64,000 bases of DNA, taken from IMG/VR virus record IMGVR_UViG_2687453424_000001; one strand, written 5' to 3'. The position numbers are program-made. Of this stretch, positions 48,001-51,000 are shown piece by piece. Source of the stretch: a virus. Lineage: Duplodnaviria; Heunggongvirae; Uroviricota; Caudoviricetes. Within the stretch, counting starts at the first letter, position 1; every line of letters starts with the position of its first letter.

Positions 48001-51000
48001 AAAAACTAAATACCCTCAGCCTTGTTCTCTGGTTTCCTTTCTGACTATTCAGTAAACTACTCTCTGAGAGTATAATTGGGACCTCTGATGCTATGTTATA
48101 CTCCAAAGAGTTACAGCAAGAAGCAAACTTGTGATTTGTAGTGTTCTGCACCCAGACTTCATTATGCTATGGTCAGACTAAGACAGCAAAACTTGGGGGT
48201 TTTACCAGTTATTTTCTTACCTTGCTAAGACTCTTGAGATGTTTGAGCTCTTCTGAATTAAATAAAAGATTCCTGCTGGTCCTGGTGACTCATCCCTGGA
48301 GAACAATCCCCCCTGCCTTTTCACATGAGCAAAACTGCACAGCTCCATACTTCACAGAAGTTTGAACACTTACCTCAGGACACCACTAAAATATTCTCCT
48401 TGACTCAGCTGTGCTATCAGCAGTCTATGCTTCATAAGCAGAATACATCCAAGATTTTATGTGGTTTGGCTGAGAACACCCAGGGAAAGCAGGAAACTCC
48501 TTTTATCTGTATTTTAACCAATGTGAACTGAAACAGAAAAGTTGAAGCTTCTCTATACAGTGAAAGCAGACATACAGTCATCTTTCTTCAGACCCATCCC
48601 TGAGCCAGGCATGGTCCCAAAGCCATACAGCTGCATCCAAGTAGCTGGGAGCTACTAACTGAGAGGAGGATGTGTCTGGTTAAGTGGCTGGTGTCCTGGC
48701 TGCCAGATTGCAGCTGTGTCATGGCCCTCAGGGACAAAATACAGTCAGAGAAAGGCCTTGACTGCCTGCTCTTGGTTTGACAGCATGCCCATCTGGGATT
48801 TCCAAACACCCAGGCAGTCTGTGGAGGACCTGGGACTCTGGCAAGCCTTGTTCTTTGGCAAGTAACAGTATGCCTGTGTGTGCTGATTGAAAGTCTAGGG
48901 ACTGTATGTTATTGCTCAGCAGCCAGCTCTGTGAGTTGTTGCAGCGTGCATTTCTGAAAGATGTCCTATAAAACAGCTATTCTGTAAATGCCCTGATTTA
49001 TTCTTGAAAGCTATTAAAGAGACAGTAGTGTCAGATGGGTCAAAGCTTCCATTTAACTAAGAGGACGTTGTTGCGTATTGATTTTGGTTGTTCACCATAT
49101 GACTGATAATACCGTCTTTATGGTTTTAAAATCAAGGTGTAAGTTCGTTTTTGTTCATGGTTGATTATCTTCTTTTGCGTTGAAAAGTGTTTTGTTCACT
49201 TGCTAATGCGTACATATTGAGTACAGAATACATTATAAACTTGTGTACAGGATATAAAGCATTGGCACTGAGTGACACCAAACTACGAGGCCTATACGGA
49301 AAACCCTACTCTGGCCCTGCTGAAATCACCGATGGTGACGGGTTAAGTGTGCGGATTACTCCAGCAGGAACTATCACGTTTCAGTACCGTTATCGCTGGA
49401 ATGGTAAGCCAGTACGTCTTACTGTCGGGCGCTATCCGTCCACTTCACTGAAGGACGCACGTGTTATCGTCGGTGAGATGCGCGCATTGTACATGAAGGG
49501 AGTTAACCCTAAAAATTATTTTGCCCCCAGTGATGGCGAATTGACATTAAAAGAATGCCTGGATCAGTGGTGGGATAAGTATGTTAGCGGCCTGAAACCC
49601 AATACTCAGACGCTTTATAGATCTGTTGTGTACAACACTATGTACACACAGTTTGAAGACTCGCCAGTTGCCGGTATCCCTGTATCGGCTTGGGCTCGCT
49701 TTTTTGACAAGCAAGAAAGCCTCAACAAGAAAAAGGCTCGTGTTCTGTTGTTACAACTGCGTTCAGTTATTAACTGGTGTATCAGCCGCCAGTTAATCCC
49801 ATCATGCGAATTACTCAAACTTAGTGTAAAGAATATTGGGAAGAAACCAGATGTGGGGAGTCGCGTACTTACCTATACGGAACTGGCAAAGATCTGGCTG
49901 ACACTGGAGAACTCAAAAGTGGTTACTTCCAACAAGCTGTTACATCAATTGCTATTGCTATGGGGGGCCAGGCTTTCTGAGCTACGTCTCGCTACAGCCA
50001 GTGAGTTCAACATGGAAGATCTGGTCTGGACAACCCCTAAAGAGCATTCAAAGATGGGTAATATTATCCGGCGTCCGATATTTACTCAGGTTGAGCCTTA
50101 TATTGAGCGATTGCTTAATATCGGATTTGATGTGCTGTTCCCTGGGCAGGAAATAGATAAACCTATTGACCGTTCGTCTGCTAATTTGTACATGAAAAAA
50201 CTCAGGGCGAAAATTGATATTCCTGAATGGAGAACGCATGATTTTAGGCGTTCTCTGGTAACGAATTTATCTGGGGAAGGAATTATGCCCCACGTCACTG
50301 AAAAAATGCTGGGGCATGAACTGGGAGGAGTGATGGCCGTGTATAATAAACACGACTGGTTGTCGGAACAGAAAGATGCGTATGAGTTGTATGCTGATAA
50401 AATTTTCTGGCACGCTAAACAGCTCGGTTAATTCCTCCGGATTTAAGCCATTGTTCAACGGCCTGACGGCTATATCGCGCCGGATGAGTAAGTACTGGAT
50501 CAGGGAATCCGTGTTTTTTTCGCAAATTATACAAAGCTGTGCGCCTTTTTTGTAACAACTCAGAAACTTCTTTTTCGGTCATTAAGTTGATTTCCATAGT
50601 ATGCTCTCCTTTTCTACATGTTTTTCAACAGCATAATAAACCGCCCGAAGGCGGTTGTTAGTTGATTGATGTACGGCGCATTTTTCGAAGGCTGGCAATA
50701 TGCTTTTCCTTCTCAATTTCCGCTTTAATCATATGCAGTTCGTTGTGCTCTATTCGCTCAAATTCTTCATTAAATGCACCAATTGAAGTGGCTCTGGTTC
50801 TGCCGTCGAGCCTTCGGTAGATCACCTGAGTCAGAGTTACCTTGCATATTTCTACCGGATAGTTGTTGGCATCAACGAAAGACTGCCCGCGCTGGATCAG
50901 GACGAACACTGGTTGTATTCCTTGAGTGCCATATCATAAACACGGCATGCCGAGAGGTGTGTTGTAGTCAACGTCGTTCGTATCCTGAAAAGTCCATGTG

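What the first reader, a model, noticed from the sequence alone, without database searches (positions are those of the whole stretch)
48900..49270. Abrupt junction between avian-type DNA and a lambdoid prophage arm
Left of about 49.05 kb the sequence is AT-rich, repeat-laden (CR1, microsatellites) and without long ORFs. To the right, coding density is near-complete with overlapping phage genes, Shine-Dalgarno sites and intrinsic terminators. No bacterial host flank or tRNA precedes int. Enterobacterial contamination or a mis-join (or deliberate splice) is far more likely than a real integration into a vertebrate genome. Short GGTTG/TTGATT repeats at 49.05-49.17 kb could be integrase arm sites, which would put the break near the att core.
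Basis: partly seen in the sequence, partly recalled or inferred. Interest (0 to 1): 0.7.

Follow-up and report, generated by a model that had tools for sequence, protein, structure and literature searches.

The report
Bird DNA mis-joined to phage Φ24B
The abrupt bird-to-phage junction is real in the sequence, but it is an assembly artefact: the window comes from a public draft genome of a laboratory E. coli strain carrying the Shiga-toxin phage Φ24B, and that draft also contains contaminating bird DNA placed end-to-end against the prophage.

Summary
At window 49047|49048 the sequence switches from CpG-depleted, ORF-poor, CR1-bearing bird-like DNA (CpG o/e 0.155) to dense lambdoid phage DNA (CpG o/e 0.957).

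The right side, 49048-64000, matches GenBank HM208303.1 (Stx2 phage vB_EcoP_24B, Φ24B) positions 22-14974 with 0 mismatches in 14,953 bases.

The whole window is the reverse complement of LN877770.1:3172241-3236240 (GCA_001405275.1). That record is the deposited 454/Newbler draft of the E. coli MC1061(Φ24B) lysogen, published as 5,027,118 bp in 15 scaffolds. The published prophage end coordinate, 3186979, is exactly the int start codon in the window.

That record is about 0.33 Mb larger than K-12 plus the phage.

Each side of the join stops at its own natural assembly end:
- The phage side starts 5 nt inside the 24-bp attP/attB core, which is the 5' end of argW.
- The bird side ends in AAGCT(T), a HindIII site. 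This suggests the end of a HindIII-cloned BAC insert.

The bird flank shows no similarity to attB. The most likely cause is end-to-end abutment of two unrelated scaffolds. This is not a biological integration, and interest is low beyond database hygiene.

The parts
1..49047 (.). Bird-like (vertebrate) DNA block. It is foreign to the E. coli record that holds it.
   Evidence: CpG o/e is 0.155 and GC 39.5%, with almost no long ORFs. No E. coli match was found. It holds a CR1 ORF whose best listed hits are all bird proteins. Only one spurious 47-aa gene is annotated in the 20 kb of it examined, window 29958-49047.
1744..5448 (.). Run of 3,705 N, a scaffold gap inside the bird block.
   Evidence: locates the run. 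The contig ends on either side overlap by about 47-50 nt and differ only in homopolymer lengths.
34423..34866 (+). CR1-type LINE fragment, the C-terminal part of the ORF2 reverse transcriptase.
   Evidence: Among 8,000 scored hits, the 120 best listed that carry an organism name are all birds. Identity is 87-90% to Nestor notabilis copies, 86% to Pezoporus and 82-85% to Tauraco.
49043..49048 (.). HindIII site AAGCTT spanning the junction. The bird block ends in AAGCT(T).
   Evidence: Only 0.17% of positions in the bird contig are preceded by AAGCT.
49047..49048 (.). The junction, equal to LN877770.1 positions 3187194|3187193. No microhomology is visible; at most the single T at 49048 is shared.
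49048..49066 (.). Right-hand 19 nt of the 24-bp Φ24B att core TTATATCCATTTAACTAAGAGGAC. This is the reverse complement of the 5' end of tRNA-Arg(CCU) argW. The first 5 nt (TTATA) are missing.
   Evidence: Comparison of attP, attL in nine lysogens and the empty attB in MG1655. A 24-bp crossover site is stated in PMC7581858.
49067..49261 (.). attP P' arm and int upstream region. It has three direct TTGTTCA copies (49088, 49151, 49192) and a TTGAGTACAGAATA / TTGTGTACAGGATA repeat (49217-49254).
   Evidence: About 0.04 same-strand copies are expected in 215 nt, giving a post hoc P of about 8e-6 for three.
49262..50431 (+). Φ24B integrase (int), with a TTG start and 389 aa.
   Evidence: Matches HM208303.1 236-1405. 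Pfam finds Arm-DNA-bind_3 and Phage_integrase. The start codon corresponds to record position 3186979, the prophage boundary given in PMC4651098.
50415..50597 (-). Excisionase (xis).
   Evidence: Matches HM208303.1 1389-1571.
53716..55477 (-). Recombination genes exo, bet and gam.
   Evidence: Matches HM208303.1 4690-6451. Pfam marks YqaJ, RecT and Gam in L018.
55784..55842 (-). Lambda cIII thermoregulator RNA element.
   Evidence: Rfam RF01804, 88.5 bits.
56950..57333 (-). Antiterminator N.
   Evidence: Matches HM208303.1 7924-8307.
59960..62350 (.). Immunity and replication region: cI (59960-60667, -), cro (60746-60973, +), cII (61112-61411, +), O (61574-62350, +).
   Evidence: HM208303.1 annotation shifted by +49026.
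62461..64000 (+). Replication gene P, cut by the end of the window.
   Evidence: Matches HM208303.1 13435-16341.

Best explanation
The window is a stretch of the public record LN877770.1, the draft genome of the laboratory lysogen E. coli MC1061(Φ24B). That draft was assembled from 454 8-kb mate-pair reads with Newbler into 15 scaffolds, which are handled in a single coordinate system. It also contains assembled bird DNA that does not belong to the strain.

The junction at 49047|49048 is where the end of a bird scaffold was placed directly against the end of the prophage scaffold, with no spacer.

Each sequence ends where an assembler would be expected to break:
- The phage contig stops inside the 24-bp att core. 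There, reads from attL, attR, attP and attB share sequence and then diverge.
- The bird contig stops at a HindIII site. This is the expected end of a HindIII-cloned BAC insert whose vector is either shared with other clones or was trimmed.

Shown:
- the provenance of the window;
- the identity of both sides;
- the exact breakpoint;
- the lack of any attB-like sequence on the bird side.

Inferred:
- that the join is a scaffold-to-scaffold concatenation;
- that the bird DNA came from BAC-type clones sequenced alongside, either as cross-contamination or as a read-file mix-up at the sequencing centre.
For: Provenance:
- An exact look-up of the integrase returned LN877770.1 (5,027,063 bp) with the same junction. 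The 7,170 bases fetched are identical to the window.
- LN877770.1 is cited as the MC1061 genome (PMC10203433).
- PMC4651098 describes the MC1061(Φ24B) assembly as 454 with 8-kb mate pairs, Newbler, 5,027,118 bp in 15 scaffolds, with the prophage at 3129539-3186979. Window 49262, the int start, maps to 3186979 exactly.

Identity of the two sides:
- The phage arm has 0 mismatches in 14,953 bases to HM208303.1.
- The left block is bird-like and has no E. coli match.

Excess size:
- MG1655 is 4,641,652 bp. Adding the 57.7-kb phage gives about 4.70 Mb, so the record is about 0.33 Mb too large. MC1061 carries deletions relative to MG1655 (my own knowledge), so this is a minimum.

The two coincidences at one point:
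- The break falls inside the 24-bp core (24/57,677 = 4e-4).
- It falls directly after AAGCT (0.17% of bird positions). The product is about 7e-7.
- This pattern is what abutment of two independently terminated contigs predicts. A single recombination or ligation event does not predict it.

Other support:
- All nine other genomic places shown for this integrase have the normal argW attL with the full core.
- 454-type assembly marks are present nearby, where overlapping contig ends differ only in homopolymer length across an N gap.
- A 43.6-kb gap-free bird contig cannot come from trace whole-genome contamination in a bacterial 454 run. It needs a low-complexity source such as clones (inference).
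Against: - I could not read the rest of LN877770.1, so three things remain unseen: the attR end of the prophage, the true argW-intS contig end, and any BAC vector sequence.
- No N spacer marks the join, so a scaffold boundary there is inferred rather than seen.
- The record length (5,027,063) differs by 55 bp from the published total (5,027,118).
- The HindIII/BAC reading rests on one site at one end.
- The paper does not mention contamination.
Confidence: 0.85

Rival explanations
1. The join lies inside a single Newbler contig. It would have been built from physically chimeric molecules, such as ligation or circularisation chimeras in the 8-kb mate-pair library, between contaminating bird DNA and phage DNA. 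On this view it is not a concatenation of scaffolds.
For: No N spacer sits at the junction. Mate-pair circularisation is known to make chimeras (general knowledge). The bird DNA was evidently in the same read set.
Against: A random chimera has no reason to fall inside the 24-bp att core and also exactly after a HindIII half-site; the joint chance is about 7e-7. No 454 linker or adaptor sequence is present within 150 nt of the junction. One chimeric molecule would not normally outvote the true attL reads in a consensus.
Confidence: 0.08
2. The junction is a real Int-mediated event. Φ24B's promiscuous, constitutively expressed integrase would have recombined attP with a pseudo-att site in bird DNA carried on a clone in the same E. 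coli cell.
For: The break lies inside the 24-bp crossover core, where a tyrosine integrase exchanges strands. Φ24B Int is described as promiscuous, with several secondary sites in E. coli (PMC7581858 and PMC3064807).
Against: - The 5 nt replacing the lost part of the core match it at 0 of 5 positions.
- The 49-nt flank matches the attB B arm at 14/49, which is chance level (31% of shuffles do as well). A 49-bp B arm is the shortest shown to work (PMC7581858).
- The bird side ends at a HindIII site, which integration does not explain.
- The sequenced strain is a plain MC1061 lysogen with no reported bird clone.
- MC1061's K-12 lineage carries the primary attB (shown for MG1655), and that site is used first.
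Confidence: 0.02
3. The record is a bird genome scaffold contaminated by E. coli or phage DNA, or it contains a true phage insertion in a bird genome.
For: 49 of the 64 kb in the window are bird-like.
Against: The window maps to LN877770.1, which is cited as E. coli MC1061. Its coordinates agree to the base with the published MC1061(Φ24B) lysogen assembly. The total length of 5.03 Mb is the size of a bacterial genome.
Confidence: 0.01
4. The junction was spliced deliberately, as a synthetic test window.
For: The phage side has 0 mismatches to a GenBank record.
Against: The phage side starts at record position 22, not 1. The same junction, with 3 kb of identical bird flank, is in a public 2015 assembly.
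Confidence: 0.01

Closest known systems
Φ24B (vB_EcoP_24B, HM208303.1) prophage left end, attL, at argW in E. coli
   Same: The P' arm, int, xis and the whole early region are identical base for base. The right 19 nt of the 24-bp core are present.
   Different: The first 5 nt of the core and the whole host B arm (the rest of argW, then intS) are missing. Unrelated bird DNA stands in their place.
Foreign-DNA contamination and chimeric joins in draft genome assemblies (cross-contaminated runs, concatenated scaffolds)
   Same: The change in composition and taxonomy is abrupt, there is no microhomology, the assembly is oversized, and both sequences end at assembly-graph break points.
   Different: The usual case is bacterial or phage DNA in a eukaryote assembly. 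Here eukaryotic DNA is in a bacterial 'chromosome' record, as long contigs that suggest cloned DNA.
Secondary-site (pseudo-attB) integration by tyrosine integrases such as lambda Int and Φ24B Int
   Same: The breakpoint lies inside the crossover core.
   Different: The flank shows no core-like or B-arm-like sequence. The second junction was not seen. The flank is not DNA of the host cell.

Membership tests
Genuine Φ24B attL (prophage-host junction) | Complete 24-bp core TTATATCCATTTAACTAAGAGGAC at the junction. | tested here: not met
   Only 19 of 24 nt are present. TTATA is replaced by AAGCT.
Genuine Φ24B attL (prophage-host junction) | Host B arm (the remainder of argW, then intS or another E. 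coli locus) to the left of the core. | tested here: not met
   No E. coli match was found left of 49048 in near or distant mode. No tRNA was found. Nine other genomes show the argW arm.
Genuine Φ24B attL (prophage-host junction) | P' arm followed by int and xis to the right of the core. | tested here: met
   Identical to HM208303.1 positions 22-1571.
Tyrosine-integrase secondary-site integration | The target flank resembles the attB core or B arm. | tested here: not met
   0/5 matches next to the break and 14/49 in the B-arm register, which is chance level.
Tyrosine-integrase secondary-site integration | A reciprocal junction (attR) in which the same target DNA resumes at the other prophage end. 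| not testable with these tools
   attR lies about 43 kb beyond the window.
Assembly contamination or mis-join | The two sides belong to unrelated organisms and the switch falls at a single base. | tested here: met
   Bird CR1 and CpG depletion on one side, 100% Φ24B on the other, with the switch at 49047|49048.
Assembly contamination or mis-join | The source record is a draft whose size or content exceeds the named organism. | tested here: met
   LN877770.1 is 5.03 Mb against 4.64 Mb for MG1655 plus 0.058 Mb of phage. It is a 15-scaffold 454 draft.
Assembly contamination or mis-join | No reads or read pairs span the join. | not testable with these tools
   The raw 454 reads of PRJEB9491 are not available here.
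   ORF 34423-34866 gives E-values down to 1e-110. All named hits among the best 120 are bird proteins, several of them named reverse transcriptase. Pfam has no model for this part.
Lambdoid Stx phage early region | The gene order int-xis-...-exo-bet-gam-kil-cIII-N-...-cI-cro-cII-O-P. | tested here: met
   Annotation of HM208303.1 and of an E. coli lysogen under the match. The cIII thermoregulator RNA is also present.

The most novel reading that the evidence does not exclude
Φ24B integrase really recombined attP, within its crossover core, with non-homologous vertebrate DNA carried on a clone in E. coli. That would show it can use pseudo-sites in animal DNA that have no recognisable attB.
Probability: 0.02. 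Interest if true: 0.45.

Novelty: not a real feature. Interest (0 to 1): 0.1.

Why it matters
There is no new biology here. The practical point is database hygiene. A public record that others cite as the genome of the cloning strain MC1061 contains at least 45 kb of bird DNA, and probably about 0.3 Mb. That DNA is placed against a Shiga-toxin prophage, and the strain's true attL junction is not represented.

Screens for horizontal transfer, prophage boundaries or contamination, and models trained on such records, could read this as a phage in a bird or as bird genes in E. coli. The record also carries at least one spurious gene call in the bird DNA.

Tried and rejected
- Short E. coli host flank hidden next to the junction: blastn with 11-nt words on 48940-49070 found only the 23 nt from 49048 onward. 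Rejected.
- Same junction elsewhere: exact 24-mer scans of GTDB species genomes and IMG/VR found nothing. A 21-mer from the bird side found nothing in JGI metagenomes, so I obtained no uninterrupted bird locus to test for microhomology.
- Exact look-up of six long bird-side ORFs: none is in the 15-billion-protein collection.
A homology search returned no representative identical to it; the best are 99% identical and 2,794 aa long. In hindsight this was a poor use of an expensive search.
- Walking left through annotated genes: only one 47-aa ORF (39958-40101) is annotated in the bird DNA, with none in the next 10 kb, so the walk stopped.
- HindIII ligation between bird and phage DNA: rejected, because neither attP nor attL has a HindIII site there. 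Both read TTATATCC.
- Library adaptors or linkers at the junction: none found. A 9-nt match to the Nextera mosaic end lies 22 nt to the left, but this was a 454 library, so I treat it as chance.
- No paper in the library mentions contamination of this record.

Full report
**1. The observation**

The sequence changes character at a single point. Left of 49048, GC is 39.5% and CpG observed/expected is 0.155. Only 2% of those bases lie in stop-free stretches of 450 nt or more. Right of it, GC is 45.2%, CpG o/e is 0.957, and 61% of bases lie in such stretches. CpG counts per 100 nt jump from 0-1 to 2-8 exactly there.

ORF lists agree with this. Long, tightly packed ORFs on both strands occur only to the right. 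The 'microsatellite' part of the description is weak, because TRF finds only a few short arrays.

**2. The right side**

Megablast against phage records gives one full-length hit: HM208303.1, the Stx2-converting phage vB_EcoP_24B (Φ24B). It covers window 49048 to 64000 at record positions 22-14974. A direct comparison gives 0 mismatches in 14,953 bases.

The record's annotation, shifted by +49026, gives these genes:
- int (49262-50431, TTG start)
- xis
- exo, bet, gam
- kil, cIII
- N
- stk
- cI, cro, cII
- O, and the start of P

Pfam confirms the integrase domains. Rfam finds the lambda cIII thermoregulator.

**3. The left side**

No part of 1-49047 matches any of 5,426 complete E. coli genomes. 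Sensitive blastn on the last 108 nt before the junction also finds nothing.

ORF 34423-34866 is a CR1-type reverse-transcriptase C-terminus. All named hits among the best 120 are bird proteins:
- Nestor notabilis copies at 87-90% identity
- Pezoporus at 86%
- Tauraco at 82-85%
- Amazona at 83%

With the strong CpG depletion, 'avian-type DNA' is supported. A parrot-like source is the best guess, but this rests on one repeat family.

**4. The break relative to att**

I compared three forms of the site:
- attP in the phage record: tgtattcaTTATATCCATTTAACTAAGAGGACgttgttg
- attL in nine E. coli genomes: ggggctcgTTATATCC...
- the empty attB of MG1655: ctcgTTATATCCATTTAACTAAGAGGACaatgcgg

Together they define a 24-bp identity block. 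It equals the 5' 24 nt of tRNA-Arg(CCU) argW. The literature also gives a 24-bp central crossover site for Φ24B (PMC7581858).

The window keeps only the right 19 nt of this block. TTATA is replaced by AAGCT. The break is therefore 5 nt inside the core.

**5. Provenance**

An exact-sequence look-up of the integrase returned ten genomic places. Nine show the normal argW attL. The tenth, LN877770.1 (GCA_001405275.1, 5,027,063 bp), shows exactly the window's junction. The 7,170 bases fetched from it are identical to window 46262-53431. The window is thus the reverse complement of LN877770.1:3172241-3236240.

LN877770.1 is cited as the genome of E. coli MC1061 (PMC10203433). Veses-Garcia et al. 2015 (PMC4651098) describe the source assembly:
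- They sequenced MC1061(Φ24B) with a 454 8-kb mate-pair library.
- They assembled it with Newbler.
- They annotated it with RAST and deposited it in ENA.
- They report 5,027,118 bp in 15 scaffolds.
- They place the prophage at 3129539-3186979.

Window 49262, the int start codon, maps to 3186979 exactly.

The deposited sequence is the original assembly, not the paper's 'hybrid'. The prophage is in reverse orientation and begins at HM208303.1 position 22, not position 1.

**6. What the junction is**

The record is a bacterial draft that contains bird DNA, not the reverse. MG1655 is 4,641,652 bp. With the 57.7-kb phage, that gives about 4.70 Mb, so the record has at least 0.33 Mb of surplus sequence. 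From my own knowledge, MC1061 carries deletions relative to MG1655, so the true surplus is somewhat larger.

Two independent coincidences meet at the junction:
- The phage side ends inside the 24-bp core (24/57,677 = 4e-4).
- The bird side ends in AAGCT(T), a HindIII site. Only 0.17% of positions in the bird contig are preceded by AAGCT.

A single recombination or ligation event predicts neither coincidence together with the other. End-to-end abutment of two independently terminated contigs predicts both.

For the phage contig, an assembler should break in the att core. A lysogen culture contains attL, attR, attP and attB reads, which share the core and then diverge.

For the bird contig, the assembler should break at the cloning site of a BAC insert, where the vector is shared by several clones or trimmed. 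This BAC reading is an inference. It is supported by the fact that a 43.6-kb gap-free bird contig cannot arise from trace whole-genome contamination in a bacterial 454 run.

Marks of 454 assembly are visible nearby. The contig ends flanking the 3,705-N gap overlap by about 47-50 nt and differ only in homopolymer lengths.

The paper uses single coordinates for a 15-scaffold assembly. That fits a concatenated pseudo-molecule.

**7. Rival explanations**

A real Int-mediated event into cloned bird DNA is the only interesting alternative. It is consistent with the break lying inside the core and with the reported promiscuity of Φ24B Int. Four points count against it:
- The flank matches the lost core at 0/5 positions and the attB B arm at 14/49, which is chance level.
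- It does not explain the HindIII end.
- The sequenced strain is a plain lysogen.
- K-12 has the primary attB, and that site is used first.

I put this at about 2%. A chimeric library molecule assembled into a contig gets about 8%, because it does not explain the double coincidence and no linker or adaptor sequence lies at the junction. A bird assembly contaminated with E. coli, and a synthetic splice, are both refuted by provenance.

**8. What I could not do**

I could not read LN877770.1 beyond about 10 kb around genes encoded in the window. I therefore did not see the attR end, the true argW-intS contig end, or any vector sequence. Raw reads are not available here. These gaps define the decisive next steps.

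**9. Verdict**

The phage arm is the already known Φ24B. The junction is not a biological feature. Interest is low and mainly concerns the quality of a public record that others use as the MC1061 reference.

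Noticed in passing
window 1744-5448 and flanks 1697-1743 / 5449-5498: The 3,705-N scaffold gap is flanked by contig ends that overlap by about 47-50 nt (...TTTTCCTTTGTTTTCAAGCGTTTGTTGAATTTGCTT). They differ only in the lengths of T runs. The gap is therefore probably spurious, or it marks a repeat. This is a typical 454 homopolymer break.
   Followed up: partly
window 49088-49094, 49151-49157, 49192-49198 (+): Three direct copies of TTGTTCA lie within 111 nt of the attP P' arm, where about 0.04 are expected (post hoc P about 8e-6). 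A TTGAGTACAGAATA / TTGTGTACAGGATA pair also sits at 49217-49254. These are candidate arm-type Int binding sites. The literature says the Φ24B Int binding sequences are still undefined.
   Followed up: partly
window 49048-49135 (- strand); L015 2310-2384: The Φ24B core is the 5' end of argW, not the usual 3' end. In a real lysogen the rebuilt argW is therefore cut off from its own promoter and sits downstream of phage P'-arm DNA. A sigma-70-like site (TTGATT, 18 nt, TATTAT at 49135-49106, - strand) points into it. This is only a consensus match and is no more than shuffles give.
   Followed up: partly
window 39958-40101 (+): A 47-aa GTG-start ORF in the bird DNA is annotated as a gene in LN877770.1. 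In the 15-billion-protein collection it is found only in that record. It is a spurious gene call in contaminant DNA.
   Followed up: yes
window 61865-61928 and 51417-51480: A tandem repeat of 24 nt x 2.9 lies inside the O gene. By analogy with lambda this may be the ori iterons (my own knowledge). A perfect 9-nt x 7.1 repeat (GCTGCACTG) lies inside the DUF1627-like gene vb_24B_3c.
   Followed up: no
window 49048-49261 vs PMC4651098: The paper defines the prophage from the int start codon (record position 3186979) and adds 236 bp when swapping in HM208303.1. Yet positions 22-235 of HM208303.1 are already present in the deposited assembly, upstream of int. The coordinate shift used for the 'hybrid genome' therefore duplicates about 214 bp of P' arm.
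   Followed up: partly
L005/L017 (CP034213.1, 4.55 Mb): A genome carries the same integrase and a normal argW attL, but with dsdC-dsdX-dsdA directly beyond argW instead of intS. IS3-family transposase genes lie inside the prophage. This looks like a rearranged or degraded relative.
   Followed up: no
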